From: a virus | Direction: 5' to 3' (one strand) | Virus record (IMG/VR): IMGVR_UViG_3300019888_000107 | Location: 46,391-110,390 of that record | DNA length: 64,000 nucleotides | Part shown: positions 4,517 to 63,516 of the stretch, piece by piece | Numbering within the stretch: the stretch's first letter is position 1 | How the letters are laid out: the number at the start of each line of letters is the position of its first letter | Position numbers and translations under genes: made by a program | Notes under the pieces: model-generated | What the model saw: only the letters and a program-made list of their open reading frames with translations | What the model was told of the DNA's origin: nothing | Database searches by the model: none

Positions 4517-4530
4517 AGAGGAAAACGATC

Positions 4531-26813: not shown

Positions 26814-27782
26814 TTACGACGCTTTCCCCGATTCGCTAGCTTTTGCCAACTGCCCTGGATTGCGTGCCCGCCATTGGGCTAGCCGGATGTAGTCGGGGGA
26901 AAGCTCGACGCCAATACCCATCCGACCAAGGGCTACCGCAACGATGGCTGTGGTGCCGGTACCAGAGAACGGATCGAGCACGACACCGCCGACGGGGGAC
27001 CAGCCTTTGATGAGCCGCCTAGGCCACTCCATCGGAAACGCAGCGAAGTGCTTGATCCCGAGGTCGGCGGGGACCGTCAGCGGCTGTGCTGTGATGGACC
27101 AGACCGAGCCGGGTAGTTTGCCGCGGGGATTCTGGGTGCTAGTGCGACCGCCGCCGGCCAGGTCGAGCCGGGCGTCTGGCCGATCGCGTCGGTTCCGCGC
27201 GTGTGCCGAGTTGTCGGTGTGCGGCTCCCGGATAGCGTCGATCGAGCTGTAGTAGCGCGGTCGCAGGGTGAGGTGGATCCAGTCCTCATGCGAGCGACGG
27301 ACCCGATCAGTGACGGACTCGGGAATGGGGTTGGGCTTGGACCAGATCACCACTGCCCTGGCGATCAGCCCCAGTTCGTCCACCGCGCGGATCCGGAAGC
27401 GCTCGGGCAACAGCAGCAGAGACTTCGGTGGGACTCCGGCGACCCGGCCTGAGCGACGTTTGGCGTGCTGATCACTGAGACCCCCACCCCGATGCCGCGC
27501 GCCGAGCTTGGCCAGGCCGGACTGTCCGCTGTTGCCGGTGGAGTACTTGTCGCCGAGGTTGATGAAGATTGACCCCGTGGGCTTGAGTACCCGGACCATC
27601 TCGGCAGTGCAGACGATCAGCGCGTCCAGGAACTCGGCCGGCGTGGGCTCACCACCGATCTGCCCCTCGATCCCGTAGTCACGCAGCCCGAAGTACGGCG
27701 GGGAGGTAACGATCAGATCAACCGACTCGTCGGCTAATGGCAGATTGCGGGCGTCGCCTTGAATGAATGTCGGGATCGTCAC
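26814..27782 (-). CDS. N4-C/N6-A DNA methyltransferase (beta class)
   Basis: VTSPPY, HFAAFP, VLDPFSGTGTT. Confidence 0.92.
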   Translation of the reverse strand: MTIPTFIQGDARNLPLADESVDLIVTSPPYFGLRDYGIEGQIGGEPTPAEFLDALIVCTAEMVRVLKPTGSIFINLGDKYSTGNSGQSGLAKLGARHRGGGLSDQHAKRRSGRVAGVPPKSLLLLPERFRIRAVDELGLIARAVVIWSKPNPIPESVTDRVRRSHEDWIHLTLRPRYYSSIDAIREPHTDNSAHARNRRDRPDARLDLAGGGRTSTQNPRGKLPGSVWSITAQPLTVPADLGIKHFAAFPMEWPRRLIKGWSPVGGVVLDPFSGTGTTAIVAVALGRMGIGVELSPDYIRLAQWRARNPGQLAKASESGKAS

Positions 27783-30643
27783 GATGCCTTCCTCAATTTG
27801 CGAACAGACGCGCCACCCAGCAGCTCAGCCACAATGCGCGGATCCTGAACTAGGTCCCCAAGTTGCCCGGCTTTCTCTCGCAATACCGATCTCACACGGG
27901 TATCAATCGTGTTTTTGGCCAGCACATCTATGATTTCAATACATTCGTGCCCCTCACTCCCTATCCGATGCAGCCGATCTTCACTCTGGAGCGCTTCCAC
28001 CAGCGACCAGGGACGTTGCAAAAACACGCAACACGACGCCGCTGTGAGTGTGATTCCAACCCCGCCGGCCCCCGTGGTGGCGCAAATCAGATCCAGCTCA
28101 CCCGATTGGAACGCCGCAATTGTCTTAGTCCGTTCAGTCATGGATTGCCCACCGACGATGTAGCCCACCCGACGCCCAGCCCCAGCCGCGGCCTCCCCGG
28201 CCAACATCACCAACTGACGGGAGGGTGCGAATGCCACCACCGACGTTTCGGGGCGCTCGGCGCAGATTTCGAGGAGGGCGTCGACTTTCCAGCTGGGCGC
28301 TTTCAGGGTGACCGACTGGTGAATCTGCTCTACGTCGAGCCCGTTAACGGTAATGATTTCCGTTGTCGTGTGCACGTCTGTTGCGGCGGAAGCTAATTGC
28401 GACAGCCGGGTCAGCTGCGCCAGGATTCCCATGACGGACATTTCGGTGCCGTCGGGCAGCTCGGCGAGCATGTCGGCTTCCATCGCGTCATAGGTACGCC
28501 GGTATTCGGCCGGGAGTTCGACGGTGCGGACGCTGTACACCTTCGGGGGTAGCTCGGTGAGCACATCGGCTTTCGCCACCCGCCGGTACTGCCCGAGCAG
28601 CGCGGTGCGGAATTCCTCTTGAGTGGCCGGGTGCAGTCCCAGGACGGTTTCGGAGTAGTCGCCGGGGATGGACAGCAGGTAGCGGTTGCACCAGCGTTCT
28701 TTCGACGGCCACGCGGTCGGTGCCAGGGCGTCGAGGGTGGTCCAGAGGTTGCCAGGATGGTGTGTGATCGGGGTTCCGGATAGCGCGACGAAGTTGCTGG
28801 CACGACGGGCTAATTGACGCGATGCTCTAGACCGATTCGCGCCTACGGATTTGAGCAAATGTGACTCATCCGCCACAACAGACACAGGACGCATCCGCAG
28901 TAACGGGCCCGGTTTCGACGCACTACCGGTGTCGCGCCAGGCGGTGTCATAGCTGGACACATAGACATCAGCGATGCCGGACAAGGCATGTCGACGCGCC
29001 GGTATTCCACGCCAGGCGACGGTGCGCCACTGCGGTGCCCAGTTCTGGAAGGTTTCGACCCAGGGATCCACCACCGACGCCGGGCACACCACCACCACCG
29101 GCAGCACAGGAGCGACTTCCGCACGTTCGACCAAGCCCAAGATGGTGGTTGGGGTTTTCCCGGTGTTGTGGGTAGGAATCAGTGCGGTGTCGGTGAGGTA
29201 GACGTGCTCGTCGTCCGAGTCCAACTCGATGCAGCACACCTCGGCGTAGCCGGCACGTTCGATCGACTCGATCGTTCGAGGCGGGTTTCGTCGCTGCACC
29301 CGTTGCGCGGCAGCTGCCCAGATGTCGCCCTTGCGGGGTAGCGCGAAGGGATTCGGCCCGTCCGCGGGAAAGCGGATTAGCACGCGGTGCTTCGGGAGAC
29401 ACTCGACCCGCTCGCCGCTCGCATTACGGTAGCCGGCGGGCTGGGGGTCCGATTCGGTGACAACGGCTCCCAGTGAGCGCGCGAGCCAGGCGACATCCGC
29501 GGCAAGCTGGGGTGAGGCCGACGAGAACTCCACCCCGGCGCCAACCTTGTTAACCGTCCCGTCGGTGTCGAGGAGTCCGGCCAGGACGCTACGACGAACA
29601 CCTTCTGACGCGAGTCGATAACACGAATGCACGAATTTGGCGGCCGCCCCCTCCCGGGCACCGAGGTCAGCCAACTGGGATGGAAGCTCGCCATTGCGAT
29701 GGAAATGCACACTCGGACAACGGTCGCCAGTTGGTCGCCGTGAGGAGGTGCCGAGTTGAGCTGCTGCTTTCTCAACCCGATCTAGGATGAAAGCGTCCGG
29801 GCACGTAATCGACAGATCAGCCCCACCGAGGGCGCCGTCGCCCAGGAGCGCGCCGTAGACGTACGAATCTAGCGGCAGCTCGGCGGAGGCGTTACCGAGA
29901 TCTCGCAGAACCGGCTGCTGGGGAAGGAAGAACTTCGCAGCTCGGCCTTGCCTGCCGTTCGGACCGTGTAACCCGGCTAGCGCGAGTAGGGACGTGGTCA
30001 GTACGCGGCCGCCTCCACGATTCCCGTGACGCTCGTTATGTGTGTAGACGTGCCAGCGGTGCTCAGCAGTGGCCAGCGTGCTGGTTCGATCGTTGAGGGT
30101 TACGCGGTAGACGGCGTGCCCGTCGGAGAACCTCTTGACCTGCCGGACGCGCTGTTGACACCCATTCGCGCCGTACACGGTGTCGCCCGGTGCGAGATCA
30201 CCAAGCCGGGTCCAGCCCTCCGGTGTGAGGATCGGCGTTGTCACCGGCTGCGGACCTGCCTCGTCGAAAAGTAAAGCCCGCCCAAGCGCGGAAATCATCT
30301 GAGCGCCCGACACTTGATACGAGCGCGGCACCATCCCCGGCGGTGGCGTAACCGACAGCCCAGCCGGCGACGAATCGGGTAACCGGGCCGCTACCTGGGA
30401 CGTAATCCACTCGGTCAGCCGGGGACCCGGCGCCCACCCCGTTCCGAATGTGGAGGCGAGTTGCACGACGCCCGGCCAACTCGCGGCCATGACCAGCGCA
30501 CCGGGCGGTTTCGATTGCTTGACCAGGGGCGTGCACAACGCGATCTGCCGGGATGCGTGGATGACGTCGTGCTCCGCGCCGGCCGCCATCAACACGATGC
30601 TGGATTCGTCCGCGGATAGCTCACCGACGATCGTGGCTGGCAT
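27779..30643 (-). CDS. SNF2-type helicase interrupted by an intein
   Basis: Spliced Walker A FDEAG|TGKT, DESH, LSGTP, GITLT, QSEDRLHRIG. Confidence 0.9.
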   Translation of the reverse strand: MPATIVGELSADESSIVLMAAGAEHDVIHASRQIALCTPLVKQSKPPGALVMAASWPGVVQLASTFGTGWAPGPRLTEWITSQVAARLPDSSPAGLSVTPPPGMVPRSYQVSGAQMISALGRALLFDEAGPQPVTTPILTPEGWTRLGDLAPGDTVYGANGCQQRVRQVKRFSDGHAVYRVTLNDRTSTLATAEHRWHVYTHNERHGNRGGGRVLTTSLLALAGLHGPNGRQGRAAKFFLPQQPVLRDLGNASAELPLDSYVYGALLGDGALGGADLSITCPDAFILDRVEKAAAQLGTSSRRPTGDRCPSVHFHRNGELPSQLADLGAREGAAAKFVHSCYRLASEGVRRSVLAGLLDTDGTVNKVGAGVEFSSASPQLAADVAWLARSLGAVVTESDPQPAGYRNASGERVECLPKHRVLIRFPADGPNPFALPRKGDIWAAAAQRVQRRNPPRTIESIERAGYAEVCCIELDSDDEHVYLTDTALIPTHNTGKTPTTILGLVERAEVAPVLPVVVVCPASVVDPWVETFQNWAPQWRTVAWRGIPARRHALSGIADVYVSSYDTAWRDTGSASKPGPLLRMRPVSVVADESHLLKSVGANRSRASRQLARRASNFVALSGTPITHHPGNLWTTLDALAPTAWPSKERWCNRYLLSIPGDYSETVLGLHPATQEEFRTALLGQYRRVAKADVLTELPPKVYSVRTVELPAEYRRTYDAMEADMLAELPDGTEMSVMGILAQLTRLSQLASAATDVHTTTEIITVNGLDVEQIHQSVTLKAPSWKVDALLEICAERPETSVVAFAPSRQLVMLAGEAAAGAGRRVGYIVGGQSMTERTKTIAAFQSGELDLICATTGAGGVGITLTAASCCVFLQRPWSLVEALQSEDRLHRIGSEGHECIEIIDVLAKNTIDTRVRSVLREKAGQLGDLVQDPRIVAELLGGASVRKLRKAS
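29165..30253 (-). mobile_element. 363-aa intein with LAGLIDADG endonuclease, class 3-type (Pro1)
   Basis: Starts PQPVTTPILTPEGW; block B TAEHRW; LLGDG / LAGLLDTDG; block F VCC; ends THN before +1 Thr. Confidence 0.88.
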
Positions 30644-30928
30644 TAGGCACCCCTCTTGACACGACGCGTCCGGTGCACAAAAATGGAATTGCCCTAGTCG
30701 TGCGGGGCAGGTCGGGAAACGGCGCCACCTGTGGTTTTTGCGGGGTGGCGCCGTTTCTTTATGGCCAGGAGAGCAGCAGGTACAGCGCCACCCCGCCGGC
30801 CACACATCCGTAAATGGTTAACCACCAGATCCCGCTCACCACCGCCAACACCACCCCCACCACGAGAAGCAGGGTGGACAGGAATGCGGCGATAGCGGCG
30901 GCGAGCGGACTCCGGTCAAACAACTGAC

Positions 30929-35189: not shown

Positions 35190-35540
35190 CTATTTACCGC
35201 GGACCCTCCCGTCGAGAGGGGAATACCTCCCAGGTTCGGGAAGTTCGGCCCGCATTGTTGTGTAGTCAAACGTCAGCTGTTCGCCCTGGTCACGCGGTGG
35301 ATCGTCGCGTACACCCTCGGAACCGTATCTGTATCCCACAGTTCCGTGCAGGATGTTCATCACTTCGGTAAGCGTCACCTCACGTGTGATCAGCCTATGC
35401 AAATTGATGTCGCGGGTCGAACCCGGTAACGGCGCCGGCCACCGACGAGCCGCATCTAGTATCCGACGGGTGCGGTTCAGTTCAGTGACCAGCGCCGCGA
35501 CATCGGGCGGTGGAATATTCAGTTGGGGGTACTCAGCCAT
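35190..35540 (-). CDS. Hypothetical protein
   Basis: RBS GGAGGG. Confidence 0.5.
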   Translation of the reverse strand: MAEYPQLNIPPPDVAALVTELNRTRRILDAARRWPAPLPGSTRDINLHRLITREVTLTEVMNILHGTVGYRYGSEGVRDDPPRDQGEQLTFDYTTMRAELPEPGRYSPLDGRVRGK

Positions 35541-35628
35541 AGCCCTCCCTATCCGCGTTAGGTGCGGTCGCGATAAGGTACAGAAGGTGTGTGACGAGCG
35601 GGTTGCTGGTATCCGTCGTCGGGAGCGT

Positions 35629-35997
35629 TCATGCCGGCGGTCGGGTGATTGCCCCGTGGGAATATTCTTCGATCAGGTCCCACACAGCGTCGATATCGGC
35701 GGTGGCGAAGAACAGGTCGGAGGCTTGGCTATCGGTGAGACCTAGTTCTCGCTGAGCGACAGCTTTGACACGTTCTCCTGTCGTGAGATACCCGGTATGA
35801 ACGCTGTCGTACGGGCCGAAGTGCGGTTCGTAACCGCTCAGCAGGACGGTCCACCCCGCAATACACCCGCGTGTGCCGCAGGTTCGGTGGGCGATCCACA
35901 CGTCCAGATCTAATTCTTCTGGGTGCGCGGTGACGTGCTCCATGACCTTCCGGAACAACGGTACATTCAGCTCGGGCTCGGTCGTGATCTCAGTCAT
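35629..35997 (-). CDS. Conserved phage protein (CGTxxCxAGW motif)
   Basis: CGTRGCIAGW..LGLT..LF. Confidence 0.7.
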   Translation of the reverse strand: MTEITTEPELNVPLFRKVMEHVTAHPEELDLDVWIAHRTCGTRGCIAGWTVLLSGYEPHFGPYDSVHTGYLTTGERVKAVAQRELGLTDSQASDLFFATADIDAVWDLIEEYSHGAITRPPA

Positions 35998-36184
35998 GAT
36001 TTACTCCTTGTCCCAGTCGTCAGCATCTTCGTAGTAGACCAGCCCGCCGTCAGCCCACTCCTCGGGGCCCTCGCCGTACACATCGGGGTGTATGACACGC
36101 AGGTGATCGAGCATTTCCGCCAGACTGCGGGAGATCTCATCCCCACAGAGGTGGCAGCCAGGTCGGTCGGGAGCGCTCATGGGA

Positions 36185-36421
36185 TCACCGTCTCGCCGGT
36201 GGTGGTTGGCCGTTGAGTGCGGCGTTGACGGCGATGTGCCGGGGGACCAGCCAGTCTTCCCACCGACGGAATTCCTCGACACCCACCAACGCCTCACACA
36301 CGGCTCTTGCTGCGGCTATCTCTTGCATTATCTCGATATTGCCGTTGGAGGCTTTTTGGCGAACCATGCTGCCCAGGATGGCGATCGAGGCCCTGAGTTC
36401 GCGTGAGACCTCAGCTGTCAT
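36185..36421 (-). CDS. Hypothetical protein
   Basis: ATGA-coupled in the operon below the RAMP gene. Confidence 0.5.
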   Translation of the reverse strand: MTAEVSRELRASIAILGSMVRQKASNGNIEIMQEIAAARAVCEALVGVEEFRRWEDWLVPRHIAVNAALNGQPPPARR

Positions 36422-36723
36422 GCGCGTTCCCTTTCCGGATGTGTACGCATTTCGTTTTGGGCGGCTACGAGGTACATGAGGTGCGCTACGAGCGATGCCC
36501 AGTCGTGCGCTGTGGCGAGTTCGTGCTCTTCGAAAGCCGTTACCATGCGAGAGATGACCTCACCGGGATCCATACCCCTGGCCAACCACCGACGCATGAT
36601 TACGATAGGCCCGTTGGGGCGGAACAGAATATCGTGATAATCGCTGCGGTGTTGGTCCATCGCCGCCAGCGCGAGGGTGCGTTGGGGTCCGTTGGTGGGT
36701 GACCACCAGTCGAGGTCAGCCAT
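36418..36723 (-). CDS. Hypothetical protein directly downstream of the RAMP gene
   Basis: ATG abuts the RAMP stop codon. Confidence 0.55.
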   Translation of the reverse strand: MADLDWWSPTNGPQRTLALAAMDQHRSDYHDILFRPNGPIVIMRRWLARGMDPGEVISRMVTAFEEHELATAHDWASLVAHLMYLVAAQNEMRTHPERERA

Positions 36724-37398
36724 TTAGACCTTGTCCCACTTCGTTACGGTGTAGGTCCCGTAGCCCTGTGAACGCGTCCCACCGATGCCTTGCTTCGCAC
36801 CGGTGAGCCAGATCAGCGCCCACTGTTCGTCGGTGATGAGGAAGTCCGTGACCACGGTGAAGTGCAGTTCCACGTTGTCGCAGTACTCGTCGTAGCGGAT
36901 CCCGTTACCGGTGTGGACGTGCACGAAACGCTGCTCGATTCCCGTCGCCTCGGTGCGGTCGAAATGCAGTTTGTTGTCCACCACCATGACGTGCTCGGCG
37001 ATAAAACCCGTGGACCCCTTATTGGTCGCACCCCACCCCCGTGACTTGAGCTTGCCGGCCGCAACACACACGTTGCACGCCTCCTTGATAGCTGATTTCA
37101 GACAACGGCCTTCCAGGTATAGGCCCCGGTCGTCACGCTTAAAACCGAGAAGGTGCCTATTGGTGTTGACCTCTTCCACGGCTGCCTCGGGACTGACGCC
37201 CCGCTCCAGCATGGTCGTGGCCACCATCTCCCGAATGGCCTGGTCGGACTGCTCGCCCATATGACGGCGGATCCACCCCTCGGCCACCTTCGGATCGGTC
37301 GGGGTACCGCCGGCAATGCGGTCCACCAAAAGCGTCCCCTTGTAGGTAAAGGGCCATGCTTGCTTGTGGTAGGCGGCGAATACATCAGTTGAGCTCAT
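36724..37398 (-). CDS. Stand-alone Cas7-group RAMP protein (Csm3/Csf2-like)
   Basis: beta1 FTYKGTLLVDRIAGG; LYLEGRCLKSAIKEA (cf. IPGSSLKGALR); thumb ..RYDEY; C-terminal G-rich loop GIGGTRSQGYGTYTV; RBS AAAGGAG. Confidence 0.8.
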   Translation of the reverse strand: MSSTDVFAAYHKQAWPFTYKGTLLVDRIAGGTPTDPKVAEGWIRRHMGEQSDQAIREMVATTMLERGVSPEAAVEEVNTNRHLLGFKRDDRGLYLEGRCLKSAIKEACNVCVAAGKLKSRGWGATNKGSTGFIAEHVMVVDNKLHFDRTEATGIEQRFVHVHTGNGIRYDEYCDNVELHFTVVTDFLITDEQWALIWLTGAKQGIGGTRSQGYGTYTVTKWDKV

Positions 37399-37414
37399 TT
37401 CGGGTTCTCCTTTG

Positions 37415-38525
37415 TTGGGTTGGTGAGGATAGTCGGACGGGAGGGGATTGGGGCGGGGCGGGGCGGCCCGTCGGAACGGGTTGGTGGGGCGGAGGGCGGG
37501 GGGTGGGGCAGGCGCGGCGCGGCTTGTCGTACGGGACTGGTTCGGGATGGCGCGGTTTGTCGGATGGGGCAGGCGTTGAGTCGGGTAGTCGGAGCGAATT
37601 GGTCACGGTCTCGGGCAGGCGCGGCTTGTCGGAGGGGGTACGGCCTGATGTGGCCTGGAAACGGGACGGCTCGTCGGGATGGGCAGGAAACAGGTTTGGT
37701 GCGGATAGTCGGGTGTGGGCAGACACGATCGGGGCTTGGCATGGGGTGGTTTTGTCGGAGCGGACCGGCGTGGCGCGGCGTGGCATGTCGGGTTAGGGCG
37801 GGAGCGGGACCGGATCGGGTAGTCGGAGGGGGCTGGTTTGGGCTGCCTCTGGGATGTCGGATGGGATTGGGATGGGTGGGCTTGTCGGTATGGGCCGGGA
37901 CGGCTCGGTACGGCATGGCTCGTCGGATAGGAGCGGTCCGGTGCGGCGCGGTAGGGCACGGCTGGTCGGAATGGTGCGGGGTTGATGTGGTTGGGGTCGG
38001 CCAGTCGGATGGGAGGGGAGGGGGTCGGGGCGGAACGGGGTCGGCCCGTCGGATGGGAGGGGGTCGGGGCGGTAGGGCCTGGGGTGGCTTGTCGGAGGGG
38101 GTCGTCTTGGGATGGCTTGTCGGAGTGGGTCGGTTAGTCGGATTGGATCGGTCTGGGGCGTGGCGGGTTGGCTAGTCGGGATGGGTCTGATCAGGGTTCG
38201 GTTTGTCGAATGGCTTGGGGGGATATGAGCGGGCTCGTCGGTTAACGGGGTTGGGCGGACGCGGGTCGGCTCGTCGGTGCGGGTAGGTAGGGATTGGCTC
38301 GTCGGAGGGGGTCGGGACGGCGCTGGCTGGTTAGGCTCGTCGGCGTGGTTCGGGTTGGATAGTCGGATTGGGTGGGATCTTGGCGTGGCTTGTCGGAAGG
38401 GCATGGTGCCGGGATGGCTTGTCGGAGTGGATCGGGGCTGGATGGGATGGCTTGTCGGAAGGGCATGGTGTGGTTACGGGATGGTCAGTCGGACAGAGCT
38501 GACGGGGATGGGGACGGAGTGTCGA
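37415..38525 (-). repeat. Non-coding array 1: 32 CGAC-anchored units with ~5-nt CC periodicity (putative guide RNA array)
   Basis: GTCG anchors on + from 37432 to 38521, typically GGCTTGTCGGA, separated by GGNNN pentamers; fills the intergenic space up to the RAMP RBS. Confidence 0.9.
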
Positions 38526-38534
38526 GCCGGAATG

Positions 38535-38753
38535 TCATTTCTTATCGGAGTTCTTCAACAGCATCACGATCCACCAGCCCGGCAGATAAAATGGCCACAA
38601 CCACACGCAGCACAGGGACATGACCGCTGCACCCACGTAGTCTTCGGTTTCAATGGGGTCGCCCATGGAGTTGAGAAACCATCGTGCGGTGGGTACCAGG
38701 AACCCCAGCACGCCCGCTAGGTACACCATCAGCACAATCGTTCCGGGGTCCAT
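38535..38753 (-). CDS. 72-aa two-TM membrane protein between the arrays
   Basis: Two hydrophobic helices, LWPFYL. Confidence 0.6.
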   Translation of the reverse strand: MDPGTIVLMVYLAGVLGFLVPTARWFLNSMGDPIETEDYVGAAVMSLCCVWLWPFYLPGWWIVMLLKNSDKK

Positions 38754-38867
38754 CAGCGGCGGGTTGCCTGGTTGTAGGCCGCCGCCCGCATGGAAGCCGC
38801 TACCTCAGCGTTGATCCGAGTGACGTCGTCCACATCGGGTGGCAGGGTGCTCATGGGGATCGACTCG

Positions 38868-39120
38868 AATCGTGTCGAATGGCATGGGTCGGGTAGGCGC
38901 GGCTTGTCGAACGACATGGGTCGGGTAGGGGCGGCTTGTCGACCGGCTAGGCAGTGTTGGCCGGTCGGGGCGGCGTGGGTAGGGATGGTCACGGCTTGGC
39001 CTGTCGGATGGGGTTGGGGCGGCAGGGAGTAGCTTGTCGAAGGGGGTAGGGAGGGGATGTATCGGCATGTCGAAAGGCCTGGGTCGGGGATGGCGCGGCT
39101 CGTCGAAACGGGAGTGTCGT
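38868..39120 (-). repeat. Non-coding array 2: ~9 units with the same grammar (anchor mostly TTCGAC)
   Basis: GTCG anchors at 38874, 38906, 38938, 38964, 39003, 39036, 39069, 39102, 39116. Confidence 0.85.
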
Positions 39121-39660
39121 TTACCGCCCGTACTTGCGCAGAGAATCAAACATCGTGGTGAGTTCGTGATCGGCGTAATGCTCGCTGACGGTTCGGGTGC
39201 CAACCTTTTTGGCCAGGGCAGTCATAAACGCGTCCATGAGTCGGTTGTCTTCGGTCCGTCGTGCGTAAGTGCCCGCGACGTAGAGCAGGTCATCCCGTCG
39301 CAGTTTCCCGAGTGGTTTGCGGGAGCCGTCTTCCAACGTGAAGGGCACGTCCAGCCACCCTCGCAATTGCGTACTGTCGCCGGCCTGGTGTGTCGTGACC
39401 GCTTCGGCGAATGCGGCGGGTCGTGCTCGGTGCCGGGCGGCGGTGCGGATCGAACGGTCCCGGTCATTGATCGCCATTCGAATGAACTGCGTCGCCTGAG
39501 CCCGCAGCCACCCGTCGACCAGCTCGGGATCCTCAACCCGCAGTCGCTCTACTATCTCAGTGGCCACCACACAGGACGTATAGGCGCCGGAGCTGGTGGC
39601 GCTGTCAATCACCCGACGCATTTCGGTGCCGTAGTCGCGCACGGCGACGGACGTCGTCAT
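39121..39660 (-). CDS. Hypothetical alpha-helical protein abutting array 2
   Basis: 179-aa ORF with RBS AGAGG; its stop is immediately followed by the array. Confidence 0.65.
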   Translation of the reverse strand: MTTSVAVRDYGTEMRRVIDSATSSGAYTSCVVATEIVERLRVEDPELVDGWLRAQATQFIRMAINDRDRSIRTAARHRARPAAFAEAVTTHQAGDSTQLRGWLDVPFTLEDGSRKPLGKLRRDDLLYVAGTYARRTEDNRLMDAFMTALAKKVGTRTVSEHYADHELTTMFDSLRKYGR

Positions 39661-39759
39661 ACCTGGTCATACCTCTCTGTGCGCGCTAGGATGCGCCCTT
39701 GAGAGGGGCCACGCATCCGCTGCCAAGCTGCCGTGGCCCCTCCCCTGACTGTGATTCCC

Positions 39760-40581
39760 CTATGCGGCGGCCTTGCGCCGGCTGTTCTCGCGGAACCAGT
39801 TGCCCAGGCGAATACCCTTCGCACCGTTCAGGATCTCTACGCCGGCCGCGGCCACGGCGAACCGACGCGAGCAGTGCGTCTTTTGCTTGGTCTTCTCGGC
39901 CAGGGCCAGCAGCGCGTTGAGGCCACCGGGGATGGTGGCGAACCGGGCGATGACGTCGGTGTCGTGGAGCTGGCCTTCGTAGCGATGCAGCAGGATCCCG
40001 ATCCCGTCGATGACCGCCGAGGCCAACCCGAAGTCGCCATAAGCGGTGTGCACGATCCGCAAGGTGCGGCTCAGGTTGTCGCCGCCGGTCTGCTGGTAGA
40101 TACGCCGCAGGGTGCCGATGCAGTGCACCGAGCCCTCCGTCCTGTCCATCGACACGTGCAGGCCCAGCTCGTCGAGGATGTCGCTGAGGGCGCAGTCTTC
40201 CTCGCGGCCCGCCTGGACACCGACCCGATACCTATCGAAGCCGTTGACAGCCAACACATTGTTGAGACGCAGGAACATTTCGGCTTCCTGCTGATCGGTG
40301 AGGCCGCTGAACACGGCGCAATCGAGCTTCGTCTCACCGAGCCCCATTCCACGCATCGCCTCAATACGGTGCTGTCCGTCGATCACGTAGTGGTGACCGT
40401 CGCGGTAGTTCAGGGTGGGCACACCCACCTGCTCGATGTCGAACTGCGCGATCAGGTGGTTGACGTGGTAGGGCTTGAGTTCGCGCTGCACGAGCGGTGA
40501 GACGCGCATGACGGCGAGGGCGACGCTCTGAATTTCAGCGTGTCGCTGAACGTCTCCGTCGGTGTTAGGCTGCTTGGGCAC
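39760..40581 (-). CDS. ParB/Srx-like (DGQHR, DUF6551-like) protein
   Basis: VQREL..HYVIDGQHRIEA..QQEAEMFLRLN. Confidence 0.75.
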   Translation of the reverse strand: MPKQPNTDGDVQRHAEIQSVALAVMRVSPLVQRELKPYHVNHLIAQFDIEQVGVPTLNYRDGHHYVIDGQHRIEAMRGMGLGETKLDCAVFSGLTDQQEAEMFLRLNNVLAVNGFDRYRVGVQAGREEDCALSDILDELGLHVSMDRTEGSVHCIGTLRRIYQQTGGDNLSRTLRIVHTAYGDFGLASAVIDGIGILLHRYEGQLHDTDVIARFATIPGGLNALLALAEKTKQKTHCSRRFAVAAAGVEILNGAKGIRLGNWFRENSRRKAAA

Positions 40582-41536
40582 GGTGGTTCAGTTCCTTCCG
40601 GAGTTTGCGCAAGTAGCGCATGGATTCATCAAGGGATTGCACCCATTTTGTCGCTTCGGCCGCATAGACTTGGTCGAAGTCGTCAAGATTGAGAAGGCTT
40701 TCGGTGGCCCTCACGGTGTTTGCGATGTCATCCACGGTGGACCCGATCACTGCGATGGGGTCCACCGTGTTTCGCGCTTTACCGATGATGCGGTCAGCAC
40801 GAATCTCAATGCCGCTTCGGGCGGCGAGTCTGCGAACGTAGAGGGGAAGTAACCCAAGTTGGTCGGCGATCTCGTGCGAGGTATGACGCTGCGCCAATAC
40901 ACGGATTTGTTCGATGCGTTCGGTCACAGGTCGCTTGAGCCGTTCATCAGCGGCGTTCTGGACCTTGCGCGCGATGTTGGCCCGTGTCAGGTTGTTTTCT
41001 GTACGACCTTCCGCGAGCGCTGCGTCGAACTCGTCGTTGGTCACATCGTCGGTCAATCGGTAGATCCCAGGCTTACTGGGACCAGACCCGAGTAGCGCGC
41101 TCTTGCGGGCGAAATCCGTCGGGCCGGGTTTGGTGGGGGCCACCAGGTGACCTGAACCAGTTTGGTGTTGGTTGCCACGGAAGTTGCCGCTCTCATTCCG
41201 TCCGCGGATTTCGCCGGCTTCCTGGCCGTTGCGGATCGCCTGGCCAATGCCACGTTCGGCCCTTCTGACCATTTCAAGGGCGTCGAGCTGGATCTCCTGT
41301 GCGAGGCCCTTCTGCCGGGTCATTTCGTGCACGGTGGCCGCCCACACCCGGAACGCGGCGATGGGCGTCGGGTCGCTGCCCTTGGTGGCGACCGCGAGCC
41401 AGGCTCGTGACTCGACCAGCGCCTGAGTGATGACCACGCCTCGTTGAGCATCTGACATGGCCTCAATCTCGGCTGTGGTGATCGGGACGGGGACCAGCTC
41501 GCTGGGGGTGCTGGCGCTGCGTGGGGTGTCGGTCAT
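40565..41536 (-). CDS. Phage protein with HTH
   Basis: RRAERGIGQ motif; HTSHEIADQLGLLPLYVRRLA. Confidence 0.6.
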   Translation of the reverse strand: MTDTPRSASTPSELVPVPITTAEIEAMSDAQRGVVITQALVESRAWLAVATKGSDPTPIAAFRVWAATVHEMTRQKGLAQEIQLDALEMVRRAERGIGQAIRNGQEAGEIRGRNESGNFRGNQHQTGSGHLVAPTKPGPTDFARKSALLGSGPSKPGIYRLTDDVTNDEFDAALAEGRTENNLTRANIARKVQNAADERLKRPVTERIEQIRVLAQRHTSHEIADQLGLLPLYVRRLAARSGIEIRADRIIGKARNTVDPIAVIGSTVDDIANTVRATESLLNLDDFDQVYAAEATKWVQSLDESMRYLRKLRKELNHRAQAA

Positions 41537-41754
41537 GCGGAGACCTGGCTGTCATCGTCGCGGCGATCTCCGCGCAAGTACCTGGTCACATCGGCGGCGT
41601 CGACCCGCCAGACCCGGTCGATCTGTACGCCGCGGACCTTGCCGGTGTGGAGCAGACGGAGAGCCTTCTTGTAGGGAATCCGCAGCCTGCGGGCCATCTC
41701 AGCCACCGTCAGCGCTTCTGGCTGCTCCGGCGGGGTGCCTCGTGGACTGCTCAT
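41533..41754 (-). CDS. Excisionase-family HTH (Cro-like first early gene)
   Basis: LTVAEMARRLRI..GKVRGVQIDRVWRV. Confidence 0.8.
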   Translation of the reverse strand: MSSPRGTPPEQPEALTVAEMARRLRIPYKKALRLLHTGKVRGVQIDRVWRVDAADVTRYLRGDRRDDDSQVSA

Positions 41755-41977
41755 AGATGCTGCTCTCATCGGGTAGGGATGGTTGGGGGTGCGGCGCCTA
41801 GGGGGCGGGGGAAGCCCGGTGGGGGCGTCCAGGTGCCGGCGAAGGCCACGTTAAGCCCCGAACACCCCACAACGCCACCACGCACCGCTATCTGATTACC
41901 CAAGGTTGCAAGGATCTACCCGAATGGACCAGCAGGGGGTGTTGTGTCCCTATGGCCCCCTAAGGGATCCTGTGGGC

Positions 41978-42457
41978 ATGGTCGGTGGTCAGAGCGCGAT
42001 GGATACAGACGGCGGTCAGGTCCCCATCGGGGCGATCCTCCGCGCGGCGCGGCAGTCACTGGGGTTGACGCATGCCGAGGTAGCGGAGCGCGTCGGTGTT
42101 GATCGCAAGACCGTAAGTAACTGGGAGAACGGCCGCCAGCAGCCGACCCGCCATCTAGTGCAGCTGGAAAACGTGCTGGGTGTCCGGTTGACCAATCGCC
42201 CTCGGGTCGAGACGCAACCGACCGAGTTTGGTCAGCTGGACAACGAGGCCCTGGCCGCCCTGATCACCCGTGCCACCGCCGAGATCCTGCGCCGGCTACG
42301 TGTGGACGGAGCCCTCAGCGGCCGGGTTGCCAAGATCAAGCCCAACGCCACGCCCGTCGTGGGCCTGCCTGAGGTGATGGCCAACGGATGGTCCGCGACC
42401 CGGACGAGCGATCTCAGCTCCGGTAACACTCGGCCACGACCTGACTTCGCAGGGTGA
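41978..42457 (+). CDS. XRE-family HTH immunity repressor
   Basis: LRAARQSLGLTHAEVAERVGVDRKTVSNWENG; divergent from the Cro-like gene. Confidence 0.8.
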   Translation: MVGGQSAMDTDGGQVPIGAILRAARQSLGLTHAEVAERVGVDRKTVSNWENGRQQPTRHLVQLENVLGVRLTNRPRVETQPTEFGQLDNEALAALITRATAEILRRLRVDGALSGRVAKIKPNATPVVGLPEVMANGWSATRTSDLSSGNTRPRPDFAG

Positions 42458-43134
42458 GGTCTACCTCACACGGGTGAACCTATTCTCAGTTGTTATCAGC
42501 ATTGATCTTGAGGGTTTTCCACTGCTCATTTTGGGTGTCCAATGCCCCCTATGGTCACATCATTCCCACCAGGACAGCGCGATTCGCTGCCGTCGTCAGA
42601 TGGGTCTCTCCCCGCGCAAGTGCGCCTCGAGTTCGTACCTATGACCGATGGGTTACTGGCGGTGTCCGACGTCAACTCCTGGGTTATCAAGATCAATTCA
42701 GCGATCCAGTGCCCGCGGCTTTTAGGGGAGGCTATCTTCCGCGAGGCGCGACGTTTAGCGGCCACCCTTCCGGACTGATTCGATCACCGATGCCTCAGTA
42801 CTTAGGGGAGCCTCCCTTACGGAATCGAGACCTTCATTTCCTTGACGGTCACGCAGTCCGCTCAATCGGCACCCCCGCCTACCATTCCCCGATCGCGCCC
42901 GTTATATTGCTGCGACATGAGACCATCGATGCCTCTAGGGGCACATGGCGACACACGAGCCGGCCGGGGTGATTGATTGCTCGGTGAAGCACTAAGCAGG
43001 AGAGAGTGTCACATCTGTAGCTCACGGACCGGCACCTACGCCGGCCCGCGCTAGACCCTGATTGCAACCATGGGGTTTTTTGGCATGCGCGTTTTCAGGC
43101 GTTCTGGCGAAACGACTAGGAACGAAGACAAACC

Positions 43135-48440: not shown

Positions 48441-48513
48441 AGCGGGATGGTGCAGCTGGTAGCATACTGGGCTCATAACCCGGAGATCGTGGGTTCGAAT
48501 CCCACTCCCGCAA
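48441..48513 (+). tRNA. tRNA-fMet (CAT)
   Basis: Cloverleaf; 1:72 mismatch; GGG/CCC anticodon stem. Confidence 0.92.
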
Positions 48514-48517
48514 CTAC

Positions 48518-48590
48518 GGTGAGATAGCTCAGCTGGTAGAGCGCCGATCTGAAGAGTCGGAGGCCGCTGGTTCGACACCAGCTCTTACCA
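48518..48590 (+). tRNA. tRNA-Phe (GAA)
   Basis: Cloverleaf; CCGAT-CTGAAGA-GTCGG. Confidence 0.92.
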
Positions 48591-48618
48591 CGTGGGTCTA
48601 GGCCAGCCGATGCACGAA

Positions 48619-48693
48619 CGGGATGTAGCTCAGTTGGTTCAGAGTGTCGGTTTTGGGAACCGAAAGTCGTGGGTTCGAGTCCCGCCATCCCGA
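48619..48693 (+). tRNA. tRNA-Pro (TGG)
   Basis: Cloverleaf; TCGGT-TTTGGGA-ACCGA. Confidence 0.93.
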
Positions 48694-48717
48694 CTAAAGG
48701 TTCTACTGAGACACTAT

Positions 48718-48805
48718 GGCGAGTTGACCGAGTGGTATGGTAGCCGTTTCGAAAACGGTAGTCGGGGGCAACCCCGCGCAGGTTCGAATCCTGCACTCGC
48801 CGCCA
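48718..48805 (+). tRNA. tRNA-Ser (CGA)
   Basis: Long variable arm, G73, encoded CCA. Confidence 0.93.
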
Positions 48806-48806
48806 A

Positions 48807-48888
48807 CCAGGGCCGCCACCGATGGCGAGGTGGGACGGGTTGTAGCCCCGTTGCTTCGGCTTAGGGAGTTCGAATCTCTCGCCCTGGA
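48807..48888 (+). tRNA. tRNA-Tyr (GTA)
   Basis: ACGGG-TTGTAGC-CCCGT; variable arm; C1:G72. Confidence 0.82.
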
Positions 48889-48896
48889 CTACACAA

Positions 48897-48970
48897 GCCC
48901 CCGTCGCTCAACTGGGAGAAGCAACGGCCTTAAGCACCGTACAGTGAGTGTTCGAATCACTCCGGGGGTA
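48897..48970 (+). tRNA. tRNA-Leu (TAA), short variable arm
   Basis: ACGGC-CTTAAGC-ACCGT; T-arm GAGTG-TTCGAAT-CACTC. Confidence 0.82.
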
Positions 48971-48980
48971 CGTGGTAGAT

Positions 48981-49054
48981 CTCGGTGTATCCCAACTGGT
49001 AGAGGACGCCGGCTCAAACCCGGTGGGTTGCGAGTTCGACTCTCGCCACCGAGA
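48981..49054 (+). tRNA. tRNA-Leu (CAA), short variable arm
   Basis: GCCGG-CTCAAAC-CCGGT. Confidence 0.88.
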
Positions 49055-49071
49055 CGTAGTATTCTAGCAAC

Positions 49072-49145
49072 GCCCGGGTATCCCAACTGGAAGAGGACCA
49101 TGGCTTAGACCCATGTGGTTGAGAGTTCGAATCTCTCCTCGGGCA
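49072..49145 (+). tRNA. tRNA-Leu (TAG), short variable arm
   Basis: CATGG-CTTAGAC-CCATG. Confidence 0.88.
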
Positions 49146-49257
49146 CGAGAGAGGGGTAGACCGGGTGATGACTCCCGCGTGACGCTCAACGTCGGGACGC
49201 CGATACCGAGCTAATGGTGTAGACAGCACGCCCCTCGTAAATTCACCCATTTCACAA

Positions 49258-49329
49258 TTCCCTGTAGTGTAACTGGCAGCACGCCGTCTTTTGGTGTCGG
49301 TAGTCCAGGTCCGACTCCTGGTGGGGAAG
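49258..49329 (+). tRNA. tRNA-Gln (TTG)
   Basis: CCGTC-TTTTGGT-GTCGG; T-loop TCCGACT; G73. Confidence 0.82.
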
Positions 49330-49331
49330 CT

Positions 49332-49410
49332 GTGAGCGAAGCCAAAGTGGCCGAGGCGCCAGGTTGTGGACCTGGAAATTTAGCGGGTTCAAGTCCCGTC
49401 GCTCACCCCA
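49332..49410 (+). tRNA. tRNA-His (GTG)
   Basis: CCAGG-TTGTGGA-CCTGG; C73-CCA. Confidence 0.88.
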
Positions 49411-53149: not shown

Positions 53150-54373
53150 ATGGGCCAGGCCCCCCGCAAGGCCACCTTCGGCAGCGTCCGCAAACTCCCC
53201 TCCGGGCGCTTCCAAGCCCGCTACACCGGCCCGGACGGAATCACCTATACCGCGCGCCGCGAGGAGGACGGCGGCCCGCTCACCTTCGGTACCAAGACCG
53301 CCGCCAACGCGTGGTTGTCGATACGGCAGTCGGAGATCGTGCGCGACGCATGGCTACCGCCGGCCAAGCCCGAGGCACCCCCAGTCACCTTGCGGGAGTA
53401 CGCCAATCCGTGGCTCGTCGACCGCGAGCTGGCGGTGCGCACCCGCGAGCTGTACGCGCGGTTACTGCGCAACCACATCTACCCGCCGCTCGGCGACATC
53501 CCGATTCCAGACATCACGCCGGCCATGGTGCGCGCCTGGCACGCAAAGCTCGCCCGCGCCGGGGAGGTGACCCGCAACGGCAAGAAGATCAAAACCAAAG
53601 ATCGACCGACCTGCCGTGCGCACGCCTACCGCCTGCTGTCCTCGATCATGCACACAGCGGTGACTGACGAGATCATCCCCGCCAACCCGTGCCGGATCCG
53701 GGGGGCTGGTGAAGTGAAACGTGCGAAGGAGATCGAGCCGGCGAGCCTGGCTGAGCTGGAGACTATCGTCAAGGCGATGCCTAACCAATATCAGCTGATG
53801 ATCTTGCTGGGCGCGTGGTGCGCGCTGCGGTTCGGGGAGCTTGCGGAACTACGTCGGTCCGACATCGACCTGACCAAACAGGTGGTGCGTATCCGTCGGG
53901 GTGTCGTCACCACGAGTCACGGTCGCCTGGTCAAGGGGCCCAAGAGCGAGGCGGCGCGGCGCCCGGTGGCCATCCCGCCGCACCTGATGCCTGCAATCAA
54001 GGCGCATCTACGCGATCACGCTGAGGGTGGCCCGGACGGACTGCTATTCCGCGCCTACAGCGGCGACCACCTCGCGGTATCCACCAACCACAGGATGTTC
54101 GCCTACGCCCGCGAGGCCGCCGGCCGCCCCGACCTACGCTTCCACGATCTGCGCCATACCGGTGCCGTGCTGGCCGCGTCGACCGGCGCCACCCTCGCGG
54201 AGCTGATGAACCGACTGGGACACACCACTCCCACCATGGCCCTGCGCTACCAGCACGCGTCGCAAGCCCGGGACCGGGTGATCGCCGACGCGCTGTCCGA
54301 GCTGGTCGCTGGCAACGTGACCCCGATCGGGGAGGCCAAGTCGGTGCGGGAGCCGGGGCGCAAGTCGGGCTGA
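53150..54373 (+). CDS. int: Tyrosine integrase (L5-like)
   Basis: GSVRKLPSGRFQARY; LRFGE; FHDLRH; LGH; RY. Confidence 0.95.
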   Translation: MGQAPRKATFGSVRKLPSGRFQARYTGPDGITYTARREEDGGPLTFGTKTAANAWLSIRQSEIVRDAWLPPAKPEAPPVTLREYANPWLVDRELAVRTRELYARLLRNHIYPPLGDIPIPDITPAMVRAWHAKLARAGEVTRNGKKIKTKDRPTCRAHAYRLLSSIMHTAVTDEIIPANPCRIRGAGEVKRAKEIEPASLAELETIVKAMPNQYQLMILLGAWCALRFGELAELRRSDIDLTKQVVRIRRGVVTTSHGRLVKGPKSEAARRPVAIPPHLMPAIKAHLRDHAEGGPDGLLFRAYSGDHLAVSTNHRMFAYAREAAGRPDLRFHDLRHTGAVLAASTGATLAELMNRLGHTTPTMALRYQHASQARDRVIADALSELVAGNVTPIGEAKSVREPGRKSG

Positions 54374-62780: not shown

Positions 62781-62820
62781 GTTATCCCTCGGTGTGTGAT
62801 GGTTGGTTGGCGCGATTGTG

Positions 62821-63516
62821 TCAAGCGGCTAATTGCGTGGCGTGTACTTCGGGTTGGTGTGTGGGAGGCCAATTCCCGGCGTGTAGATTGGCATGCCCCA
62901 GCCACTTGGCCTCATCGACGGTGAGCGCGAAGAGCTGCCCCAGGTGCAGATCGGGTTCAGGTATCAAGTTGCCATCAGGGTCGCGCATACGTGGGTGTGC
63001 ACAGAGCTGACCCCGGCGTTGGTTGTCGGAATACCAGGTCACGTTGCCGTTGGTGCCGGGTCCGATGCGGTAGTGCGTACCGAGGTTGCCGACGAAATCA
63101 AACGTGCCGTCGTCCTCGTATTGGGCGCGCTGGGCATCGTTGAGGAACCTAAATAGCAGCTCTCGCGCCCGCTCCTCCGCACTTTCGCGTTCCCGCCGAC
63201 GCTGTGCGATTCGTTCCTGGTACTCCGCCTGTCGCCGGGTGTGGTCTGCCTCTTCTTCGGGTGTGAGTTGTTGAGTGGGCACGTTCATACGGGCTATCGA
63301 GCCGGGCTGCATGCGCACGGGACGGTTCCCTATGGGTGCGGTGCTGCTCGTAGTCGTTGCCCAGGTCGACACCGACACTGTGGTGCTGGAATAGCTGTAC
63401 GTGACGGGGTTGATCCAATACCCGCCGGTGCTGTTGAGAGACCCCGTAGAGCCGTTTAATGCCCACTGGCCAGCGCGAATGGTCGGGGCCGGCTCTACGG
63501 GGCTCTCATCAGGCAT
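62821..63516 (-). CDS. Hypothetical protein with C-terminal GNV..GQLCAHP domain
   Basis: Coiled coil followed by a compact domain with a single Cys. Confidence 0.65.
   Translation of the reverse strand: MPDESPVEPAPTIRAGQWALNGSTGSLNSTGGYWINPVTYSYSSTTVSVSTWATTTSSTAPIGNRPVRMQPGSIARMNVPTQQLTPEEEADHTRRQAEYQERIAQRRRERESAEERARELLFRFLNDAQRAQYEDDGTFDFVGNLGTHYRIGPGTNGNVTWYSDNQRRGQLCAHPRMRDPDGNLIPEPDLHLGQLFALTVDEAKWLGHANLHAGNWPPTHQPEVHATQLAA

What the first reader, a model, noticed from the sequence alone, without database searches (positions are those of the whole stretch)
36724..39120. Candidate phage RNA-guided system: stand-alone Cas7/RAMP gene coupled to a non-CRISPR periodic repeat array
Seen: a 224-aa ORF with RAMP hallmarks (beta1 ..RIAGG, LYLEGRCLKSAIKEA, thumb, G-rich loop GIGGTRSQGYG). 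Its RBS is directly preceded by 1.1 kb of non-coding patterned sequence, and a second 0.25 kb block lies further upstream. No cas1/2/5/6/8/10 and no classical repeat-spacer array occur in the window. Known: Cas7 subunits polymerise on RNA with a fixed nucleotide footprint and flip out bases periodically. Inference: the RAMP protein coats units of this array, each subunit gripping the constant dinucleotide and displaying the variable bases for gapped (non-contiguous) recognition of DNA or RNA. Possible uses are silencing competing phages or host defence genes, or decoying host CRISPR. The locus sits in the early operon after the Cro-like gene. I recall phage RAMP + GGY/NN-repeat systems being reported recently (VIPR); I cannot verify the relationship, and here the gene-sense strand is CC-periodic, not GG-periodic.
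Basis: partly seen in the sequence, partly recalled or inferred. Interest (0 to 1): 0.96.

Follow-up and report, generated by a model that had tools for sequence, protein, structure and literature searches.

The report
Phage VIPR system with mirror-strand array
A temperate actinobacterial phage carries a small Cas7-like protein, a conserved partner gene and a 1.4-kb five-base-repeat array: a member of the phage VIPR RNA-guided DNA-silencing systems published in 2026, unusual because the array is C-rich, not G-rich, on the gene's strand.

Summary
ORF 36724-37398 (-) folds as a single-domain RAMP: every one of the top 50 PDB matches is a CRISPR RAMP, Z up to 10. Its family aligns with the published Vipr of phage SUSP1 at profile level (hhalign 92.7%, E 4e-7). 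Blocks 37415-38525 and 38860-39120 are real arrays with 5-nt GG periodicity on the + strand (z 9.1 and 5.6). About 40 units of 28-46 nt are each closed by a GTCGG anchor reached by an 8-nt step.

The scan had already met VIPR loci on other DNA.

Three points are specific to this clade.
- A conserved 179-aa helical partner gene lies upstream in 22 of 24 related loci.
- The array fills the whole gap from the partner's stop codon to the vipr ribosome-binding site.
- Polarity is inverted. Arrays are CC-periodic on the gene strand in 19 of 30 related loci and never GG-periodic. In the SUSP1-type family they are GG-periodic in 63 of 80 and never CC-periodic.

SUSP1's guanine-contact residues are not conserved here. 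The guide is therefore either a C-rich sense RNA (my preference, about 0.55-0.6) or an antisense G-rich RNA. No RNA data were available. No targets were found.

The parts
36724..37398 (-). vipr-like gene: 224-aa single-domain RAMP with an RRM core, a long beta-hairpin thumb at about residues 153-184, and the G-loop GIGGTRSQGYG
   Evidence: AF2 model has pLDDT 72. Foldseek top hits are type VII Cas7 and Csm3, E 4e-6. VIA-align gives Z 10.0 and all top-50 hits are RAMPs. hhalign against the SUSP1 Vipr family gives 92.7%, E 4e-7. At least 630 homologs, all unnamed; 744 clusters at 50% identity.
37399..37414 (-). ribosome-binding site (AAGGAG) of vipr, directly abutted by the array; no room for a separate promoter
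   Evidence: Sequence read. The last anchor lies 4-56 nt from the vipr start in 20 loci.
37415..38525 (.). array A: about 30 units of 28-46 nt. On the + strand each unit is GTCGG(A) + (NNNGG)x4-8 + NNN; on the gene strand it is (CCNNN)n punctuated by CCGAC
   Evidence: Lag-5 GG z = 9.1. Parse. Pentamer letter bias and anchor consensus. Internal unit duplications.
38535..38753 (-). 72-aa ORF with two hydrophobic stretches; not conserved in related loci. Together with the 33-aa ORF it splits the array
   Evidence: ORF; no tblastn hit in 30 related loci; no family match.
38753..38854 (-). 33-aa ORF whose TGA stop overlaps the ATG of the 72-aa ORF (TGATG)
   Evidence: Read from the sequence. Its status as a gene is inferred only.
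38860..39120 (.). array B: about 8 units, mostly with a GTCGAA anchor variant. It includes a 32-nt tandem duplicate at 92% identity and starts 1 nt after the partner's stop codon
   Evidence: Lag-5 GG z = 5.6.
39121..39660 (-). 179-aa conserved partner gene (candidate vap), all-helical, no known fold
   Evidence: Present on the same strand, upstream of vipr, in 22 of 24 loci that have an upstream flank. Alignment A4. AF2 pLDDT 90.8. No PDB or BFVD match. A homolog precedes vipr in Microcystis phage Mae-JY09.

Best explanation
This is a VIPR-type (Viral Interference Programmable Repeat) system of a temperate actinobacterial phage, expressed in the early leftward operon. The module is: partner gene (179 aa), pentanucleotide array, vipr (RAMP).

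**Proposed mechanism, by analogy with the published SUSP1 system.**
- Vipr protomers polymerise on the array RNA, one per 5-nt repeat.
- They sequester the constant dinucleotide and present the variable letters for gapped pairing with double-stranded DNA of competing phages or prophages.
- Binding represses transcription of the target.

**Specific to this clade.**
- The array is a run of short guides (4-8 repeats each) punctuated by a CCGAC/GTCGG anchor that breaks the 5-nt register with an 8-nt step.
- I think it most likely that the array is made as part of the operon transcript, that is as C-rich RNA (CCNNN)n. The constant dinucleotide read by this Vipr clade would then be CC rather than GG.

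**Shown versus inferred.** Shown: the fold, the remote homology, the array grammar, its conservation, its polarity and its fast turnover. Inferred: RNA binding, the strand, processing at the anchors, DNA silencing and the targets.

**Odds.** VIPR-type RNA-guided system of either strand: about 0.88. The full statement including the sense C-rich guide: about 0.5-0.55.
For: **Fold.** RAMP fold with G-loop and thumb.

**Homology.** The profile-profile match to the SUSP1 Vipr family covers helix 1 through the G-loop: 92.7%, E 4e-7, 134 columns.

**Context.** Phage genome with an XRE repressor and an excisionase-type HTH switch, integrase and replication genes. No Cas1 or Cas2 and no CRISPR array.

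**Array.** 5-nt periodicity and unit grammar. Anchor spacing is 3 mod 5 in 188 of 434 intervals across 20 loci, p = 3e-28.

**Conservation.** The partner-array-vipr module recurs in 19 of 21 related loci that hold both genes. It also occurs in a cyanophage, where the array lies downstream.

**Turnover.** In L014 versus L025, vipr is 89% and the partner 81% identical, while the arrays are no more alike than shuffles, 66% versus 63%. This is as expected of guides.

**For the sense strand.**
- The array runs from 0-67 nt after the partner's stop codon to 4-56 nt before the vipr start. The vipr mRNA leader must therefore contain it in sense.
- Polarity relative to vipr is absolute. It is CC on the gene strand in 19 of 30 loci and GG in 0. 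In the SUSP1-type family it is GG in 63 of 80 and CC in 0, including loci of 58-64% GC. It holds whether the array is upstream or downstream.
- In SUSP1 the vrRNAs lie on the vipr strand, and vrRNA1 and vipr were cloned together behind one inducible promoter.
- SUSP1's guanine-contact residues are replaced. D177 and W178 of the G-loop GDWRP correspond to GA(S/T)RS here. Thumb R138 aligns with an invariant Glu in IQYEEY.
- A later preprint reports VIPR arrays with other constant triplets: GAC, CAC, WGT, TGH.
Against: - No RNA evidence of any kind was available.
- All experimentally characterised vrRNAs are G-based (GGY). The preprint lists an NNNGG class, which is what the antisense strand of this array would be.
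- The hhalign link to SUSP1 Vipr covers only the C-terminal 60%. With a single SUSP1 sequence as target it is insignificant.
- No target was found by the 1-nt-skip rule.
- Many units contain 6-nt steps, so the register is imperfect.
- The partner has no recognisable DNA-binding fold and is unrelated to SUSP1 vap1.
Confidence: 0.52

Rival explanations
1. Same VIPR-type system, but the functional guides are G-rich RNAs transcribed from the + strand, antisense to the operon. These would be vrRNAs of the NNNGG class in a staggered array, as catalogued in the VIPR preprint. The clade would then differ only in array orientation.
For: - The published Vipr-RNA structure reads two guanines per repeat.
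- The preprint lists NNNGG repeats and staggered arrays without spacers between vrRNAs.
- The + strand fits NNNGG with GTCGG punctuation.
Against: - The array is wedged between two co-directional genes, from stop codon to ribosome-binding site, in 20 loci. An antisense promoter would have to lie inside the vipr coding sequence, and its transcript would collide and pair with the obligatory sense leader.
- The simple promoter scan found none in 35500-42500, but it is a sigma-70 consensus scan and is weak evidence for Actinomycetota.
- The guanine-contact residues of SUSP1 Vipr are not conserved.
- The semi-conserved pyrimidine lies 5' of GG, not 3' as in GGY.
Confidence: 0.33
2. The array is not a set of programmable guides. 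It is a cis-acting element of the operon. For example, it could be a long C-rich leader on which the RAMP protein or the partner assembles to autoregulate vipr translation or mRNA stability. Or it could be a DNA-level array of CGAC sites for the partner protein.
For: - The array abuts the vipr ribosome-binding site.
- The most conserved element is the anchor, not the variable letters.
- No target was found.
- The partner's function is unknown.
Against: - Array content turns over completely between phages whose flanking genes are 81-89% identical, while the grammar is kept. That suits guides, not a fixed cis element.
- Arrays can also lie downstream of vipr.
- The protein is homologous to a protein shown to use such arrays as guides.
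- Array length varies from 0.2 to 1.9 kb.
Confidence: 0.1
3. Coincidence: a low-complexity G/C-skewed spacer next to an unrelated small protein.
For: None beyond the imperfect register of many units.
Against: - Periodicity z scores of 9.1 and 5.6.
- Spacing quantisation at p = 3e-28 across 20 loci.
- Absolute polarity.
- RAMP fold.
Confidence: 0.02

Closest known systems
VIPR type II: Escherichia phage SUSP1 and a Pseudomonas fulva prophage (bioRxiv 10.64898/2026.04.26.720920; structures in 10.64898/2026.04.26.720927)
   Same: - Phage-borne, minimal locus with a small single-RRM RAMP, one accessory gene and pentanucleotide-repeat arrays in the flanking intergenic DNA.
- No cas genes.
- Profile-level homology of the RAMP.
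- The array sits next to vipr, on either side.
   Different: - SUSP1 has about 100-nt vrRNAs of 9-16 GGY/NN repeats with a structured 3' tail, G-rich on the gene strand.
- Here the units have 4-8 repeats, have no tail, and are closed by a 5-nt anchor with an 8-nt step.
- Only two constant letters per repeat.
- C-rich on the gene strand.
- The residues that contact G are replaced.
- The partner is unrelated to vap1.
VIPR variants listed in the same preprint: staggered arrays with abutting vrRNAs, and NNNGG / YNNNG / NNNNG repeats
   Same: - Arrays with no spacer between successive guides.
- Only GG is constant.
- This is the closest description in words.
   Different: - The text gives neither host range, strand relative to vipr, nor an anchor motif for these variants, and the figures and tables were not available.
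- I cannot say whether this clade is one of the seven types.
- Per the text, staggered arrays were not confirmed by RNA sequencing.
Non-canonical VIPR arrays found with a genomic language model (bioRxiv 10.64898/2026.10.21.760802)
   Same: Vipr-like folds next to 5-nt arrays whose constant triplet is not GGY: GAC, CAC, WGT, TGH. This is a precedent for recoded constant letters.
   Different: - CC-based repeats and CCGAC punctuation are not mentioned.
- Those arrays are reported as 10 repeats long.
Cas7-family RAMPs of class 1 CRISPR-Cas: Csm3/Cmr4 of type III, type VII Cas7, Csf2 of type IV
   Same: Fold is an RRM with G-loop and thumb. Best structural matches are 8yhd_A at Z 10.0 and 6ae2_B at Z 9.1. 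These proteins polymerise on RNA with a fixed footprint.
   Different: - No CRISPR array and no Cas1 or Cas2 here.
- 5-nt rather than 6-nt periodicity.
- No sequence-level match: phmmer and a profile search of the PDB found nothing.

Membership tests
VIPR system | Small single-domain RAMP (RRM core, G-loop, thumb) outside any CRISPR-Cas locus | tested here: met
   AF2 model plus Foldseek and VIA-align: all top hits are RAMPs, Z up to 10. No Cas1 or Cas2 in the genome and no CRISPR array in the window.
VIPR system | Sequence homology of the RAMP to published Vipr proteins | tested here: met
   hhalign of family profile A2 against SUSP1-family profile A3: 92.7%, E 4e-7, 134 columns. Against the single SUSP1 sequence it is weak, E 0.057.
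VIPR system | Tandem pentanucleotide repeats with constant and hypervariable letters in the DNA flanking vipr | tested here: met
   Conserved in related loci. Content turns over between close relatives.
VIPR system | Canonical GGY/NN consensus, G-rich on the vipr strand (as in type II) | tested here: not met
   GG lies on the strand opposite vipr. The letter after GG is not a pyrimidine (A 31%, G 31%). The letter before GG avoids A (6%). Polarity is 19 loci CC to 0 GG here, against 63 GG to 0 CC in the SUSP1-type family.
VIPR system | Conservation of the residues that read G1 and G2 in SUSP1 Vipr (H17, D177, W178, R138) | tested here: not met
   In the hhalign alignment D177 and W178 correspond to A/G and S/T, and R138 to an invariant Glu. 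R179 is kept as R209. H17 lies outside the aligned part.
VIPR system | Encoded by a phage or prophage | tested here: met
   The IMG/VR virus record is 110 kb. It carries a repressor/HTH switch, integrase, replication genes and 10 tRNAs. Thirty homologous loci are in viral contigs.
VIPR system | Accessory vap gene with predicted DNA-interacting function | tested here: inconclusive
   A conserved 179-aa partner is present. It has no Pfam, PHROG, NCBIfam or PADLOC match, no fold match and no likeness to vap1.
VIPR system | Array is transcribed, processed to vrRNAs and bound by Vipr; the complex binds DNA by a gapped code | not testable with these tools
No RNA-protein modelling tool was available.
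Class 1 CRISPR-Cas effector (Cas7 subunit) | Association with a CRISPR repeat-spacer array and other cas genes | tested here: not met
   Neighbouring genes have no Cas family match.

The most novel reading that the evidence does not exclude
A mirror-coded VIPR clade. This Vipr lineage, widespread in phages of Actinomycetota and present in a cyanophage, would read CC instead of GG. Its guides would be made directly from the operon's own mRNA leader, as a self-punctuated string of about 30-45-nt mini-guides cut or phased at CCGAC anchors. The VIPR protein-RNA code would then be recodable at its constant letters. It would also supply a second, orthogonal scaffold and show a new way of delimiting guides without tails or ribozymes.
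Probability: 0.45. Interest if true: 0.7.

Novelty: new variant of a known kind. Interest (0 to 1): 0.5.

Why it matters
VIPR systems were first described in 2026, and only the G-based type II has been studied experimentally.

This locus belongs to a large, unnamed clade with a different array grammar. The clade holds 744 clusters at 50% identity, mostly from high-GC soil bacteria and their phages. Its guides are short, closed by an anchor, and of inverted strand polarity.

If the guides are the C-rich sense RNA, the constant letters of the VIPR code are evolvable. An orthogonal Vipr/guide pair would then exist for programmable DNA binding.

If the guides are antisense, this clade is a natural case of guide production against the direction of the operon.

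Either answer needs one strand-specific RNA experiment. The basic discovery, a phage RAMP plus pentanucleotide guides, is already published, which limits the interest.

Tried and rejected
**Family and sequence searches that found nothing.**
- Pfam, PHROGs, NCBIfam and PADLOC gave no match for vipr, the partner, the 72-aa ORF or the 101-aa ORF downstream of vipr.
- Sequence and profile searches of the PDB gave nothing meaningful. Vipr structures seem not to be in that copy.
- Rfam gave no hit in 36000-40000 on either strand, so no hammerhead or other ribozyme lies between units.

**Strand and structure tests that did not decide.**
- The promoter and terminator consensus scan was uninformative.
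- RNA folding of either strand is no more stable than shuffles. The C-rich strand is nearly unstructured: -12 and -29 kcal/mol per 131 nt, against -46 and -54 for the G-rich strand. This is suggestive at most.

**Target searches.**
- Ten perfect-register guides were searched with skip lengths 0-3 against the phage's own genome and 30 related loci. There was no excess over order-shuffled guides.
- One 14-letter gapped pattern scanned over IMG/VR gave 115 hits, 111 of them in contigs under 60% GC and none at 65% GC or above. I take these as chance.
- I compared the variable dinucleotides with codon-phase dinucleotide frequencies to test the wobble-skip idea. Differences were 0.2 bit or less, so this is inconclusive.

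**Partner protein.** No PDB match above Z 5.5. BFVD gave only weak matches to uncharacterised proteins, two of them from mycobacteriophages. The protein Atlas gave only unnamed clusters below 0.9.

**Near-identical sister phage for array comparison.** Exact-word scans of viral and metagenome contigs found none.

**Complex prediction.** No complex prediction was run, because I make no claim that Vipr binds the partner.
Full report
**Where the locus sits**

The window is part of a 110-kb IMG/VR virus record of 62.8% GC.

The finding lies in a leftward operon. The operon starts at a divergent switch formed by an XRE-type repressor (41906-42457, +) and an excisionase-family HTH gene (41533-41769, -). 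It runs on into replication genes: a 1681-aa PrimPol-helicase-PolA fusion, an SNF2 helicase and a DNA methylase. A tyrosine integrase lies at 53150-54373.

The gene order on the - strand is:
- a 323-aa protein;
- a ParB-like DUF6551 protein (39760-40581);
- a 179-aa ORF (39121-39660);
- array B (38860-39120);
- two small overlapping ORFs of 33 and 72 aa;
- array A (37415-38525);
- the 224-aa ORF (36724-37398);
- further small ORFs.

**The protein**

The 224-aa ORF matches no Pfam, PHROG, NCBIfam or PADLOC family. It has at least 630 homologs, all unnamed. The few with a taxon come from Pseudonocardia, Actinomadura and Nocardiopsis.

A profile search of 1.8 billion representatives found 744 clusters at E <= 1e-3.

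An AlphaFold model built on 30 homologs has pLDDT 72. The core is confident and a helical insertion at residues 32-83 is poorly predicted.
- Foldseek against the PDB puts type VII Cas7 and Csm3 on top, at E 4e-6.
- An independent all-against-all alignment gives Z 10.0 to 8yhd_A. All 50 listed chains are CRISPR RAMPs.

**The array**

On the + strand array A is 50% G. GG recurs at a lag of 5 nt far more often than in shuffles: z 9.1 for array A and 5.6 for array B.

A register-aware parse shows the grammar. GTCGG, usually followed by A, is followed by four to eight NNNGG pentamers, then three letters, then the next GTCGG. The anchor is therefore reached by an 8-nt step.

Array A gave 114 steps of 5 nt, 29 of 8 nt and 14 of 6 nt, so some units are imperfect.

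Within the pentamers the first two letters are variable. The letter before GG avoids A (6%) and is a pyrimidine in 71%.

Tandem near-duplicates of whole units occur at 38873-38936 (92% identical) and 38386-38470. This points to growth by unit duplication.

No other such block exists in the genome. No Rfam family matches. Neither strand folds better than shuffles.

**Related loci**

Thirty IMG/VR contigs encode relatives at 36-59% identity.

In 22 of the 24 that have upstream sequence, a homolog of the 179-aa ORF lies upstream on the same strand.

In 19 of the 21 with both genes, the gap between them has these properties on the gene strand:
- 41-56% C;
- 3-48 CCGAC anchors;
- at most one GTCGG.

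Across 20 loci, the window's own included, the spacing of anchors is 3 modulo 5 in 188 of 434 intervals, against 20% expected (p = 3e-28). The array begins 0-67 nt after the partner's stop codon in 19 of the 20 loci and 181 nt after it in L031. In this window it begins 1 nt after. It ends 4-56 nt before the vipr start.

Two loci carry arrays downstream of vipr, with the same polarity.

The only cultured phage in the phage collection with this protein is Microcystis phage Mae-JY09 (33% identity). It has a 179-aa partner homolog (hhalign 95%), then vipr, then a C-rich CCGAC-punctuated array and a hairpin at the genome end.

Between two related phages (L014 and L025), vipr is 89% and the partner 81% identical. 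The arrays between them are no more alike than shuffled sequence: 66% against 63% with the same aligner. The grammar is conserved while the content turns over, as expected of guides.

**What is known**

Two April 2026 preprints describe VIPR systems:
- a small phage-encoded RAMP (Vipr);
- usually one accessory gene (vap);
- vrRNAs made of GGY/NN pentamers.

One protomer binds per repeat. The GGY letters are flipped out and held by the protein. The NN letters pair with double-stranded DNA while skipping every third target base. The outcome is transcriptional silencing of competing phages, satellites and prophages.

Seven types are named. The variants include staggered arrays without spacers and NNNGG, YNNNG or NNNNG repeats.

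A later preprint reports Vipr-like folds next to arrays with other constant triplets.

Earlier follow-ups of this scan also met VIPR loci on other DNA. One noted a clade with C-rich arrays on the gene strand.

**Membership**

I fetched the SUSP1 locus. Its vipr is at 28474-29061 (-) and its vap1 at 28031-28471 (-).

Its GGT-based vrRNAs lie on the gene strand, both upstream and downstream.

A profile of my family against a profile of the SUSP1 family gives hhalign probability 92.7% and E 4e-7 over 134 columns, from helix 1 to the G-loop. The family is therefore a remote but real relative of published Vipr.

Two defining details of the characterised type are not met.

First, polarity. With the same detector, SUSP1-type loci carry GG-periodic arrays on the gene strand in 63 of 80 cases and never CC. 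This includes loci of 58-64% GC. My family carries CC-periodic arrays on the gene strand in 19 of 30 and never GG.

Second, the residues that read the two guanines in SUSP1 are replaced:
- D177 and W178 in the G-loop GDWRP are GA(S/T)RS here;
- R138 in the thumb aligns with an invariant Glu in IQYEEY;
- R179 is kept.

**Which strand is the guide?**

I could not obtain RNA data.

The anatomy favours the sense, C-rich RNA.
- The array occupies nearly the whole space between two co-directional genes and abuts the vipr ribosome-binding site. Any vipr mRNA must therefore carry it as leader.
- Polarity relative to vipr is kept wherever the array lies.
- In SUSP1 the guides are likewise on the vipr strand, and vrRNA1 and vipr were cloned together behind one inducible promoter.

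The chemistry known so far favours G-rich RNA, and the preprint's NNNGG class would describe the antisense strand.

I put the sense reading at about 0.55-0.6 given a VIPR system. A cis-regulatory or DNA-level role gets about 0.1.

**The partner**

The 179-aa protein gives a confident all-helical model with pLDDT 90.8. It has no convincing structural relative. It shows no likeness to vap1.

Its strict linkage makes it the candidate accessory gene of this clade. Its role is open: RNA processing at the anchors, DNA binding or filament loading.

**Targets**

Searches with the published 1-nt-skip rule and with other skip lengths gave nothing above controls. A codon-phase composition test was inconclusive.

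With only 10-16 specified letters per unit, and with strand and register unknown, this is not evidence against targeting.

**Verdict**

This locus adds a large actinophage clade with an anchor-punctuated array of short units, a new conserved partner and inverted strand polarity. I rate it a new variant of a known kind, of moderate interest.

Noticed in passing
window 38753-38854 and 38535-38753 (-): A 33-aa ORF and a 72-aa ORF with two hydrophobic stretches, joined by a TGATG stop-start overlap, split the array into blocks B and A. Neither is found in the 30 related loci, so they look like an inserted small-gene cassette.
   Followed up: partly
window 38873-38936 and 38386-38470: Near-identical tandem copies of whole array units: 32-nt period at 92% identity, and 33-nt period with 2.8 copies. 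This suggests arrays grow by unit duplication followed by divergence of the variable letters.
   Followed up: partly
window 48441-49410 (+): A cluster of 10 tRNA genes: Met, Phe, Pro, Ser, Tyr, three Leu, Gln, His.
   Followed up: no
window 16525-21570 (-): A 1681-aa fusion protein combining PrimPol, DUF5906 (D5-type helicase region), a 3'-5' exonuclease and family A DNA polymerase domains.
   Followed up: no
window 27779-30805 (-): An SNF2-family helicase of 1008 aa with a LAGLIDADG-like segment at residues 404-462. This may be an intein or an inserted homing endonuclease.
   Followed up: no
window 39760-40581 (-): A ParB-like DUF6551 protein lies directly upstream of the partner gene. Only 1 of 30 related loci has it, so it is probably not part of the module.
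   Followed up: partly
L148 (Microcystis phage Mae-JY09, PP395641) 3462-5200: A cultured cyanophage carries the same module: a 179-aa partner, a 248-aa Vipr homolog, and a downstream C-rich array with CCGAC anchors ending in a perfect hairpin near the genome end. All genes are annotated as hypothetical.
   Followed up: partly
L017 and L029: Two related loci have the vipr homolog but no array in the upstream gap. L017 keeps the partner gene. Their arrays may lie elsewhere or be lost.
   Followed up: no
window 61322-62905 (-): A 527-aa AAA/STAND-like NTPase lies beyond the integrase. It may belong to host flank or to a defence gene.
   Followed up: no
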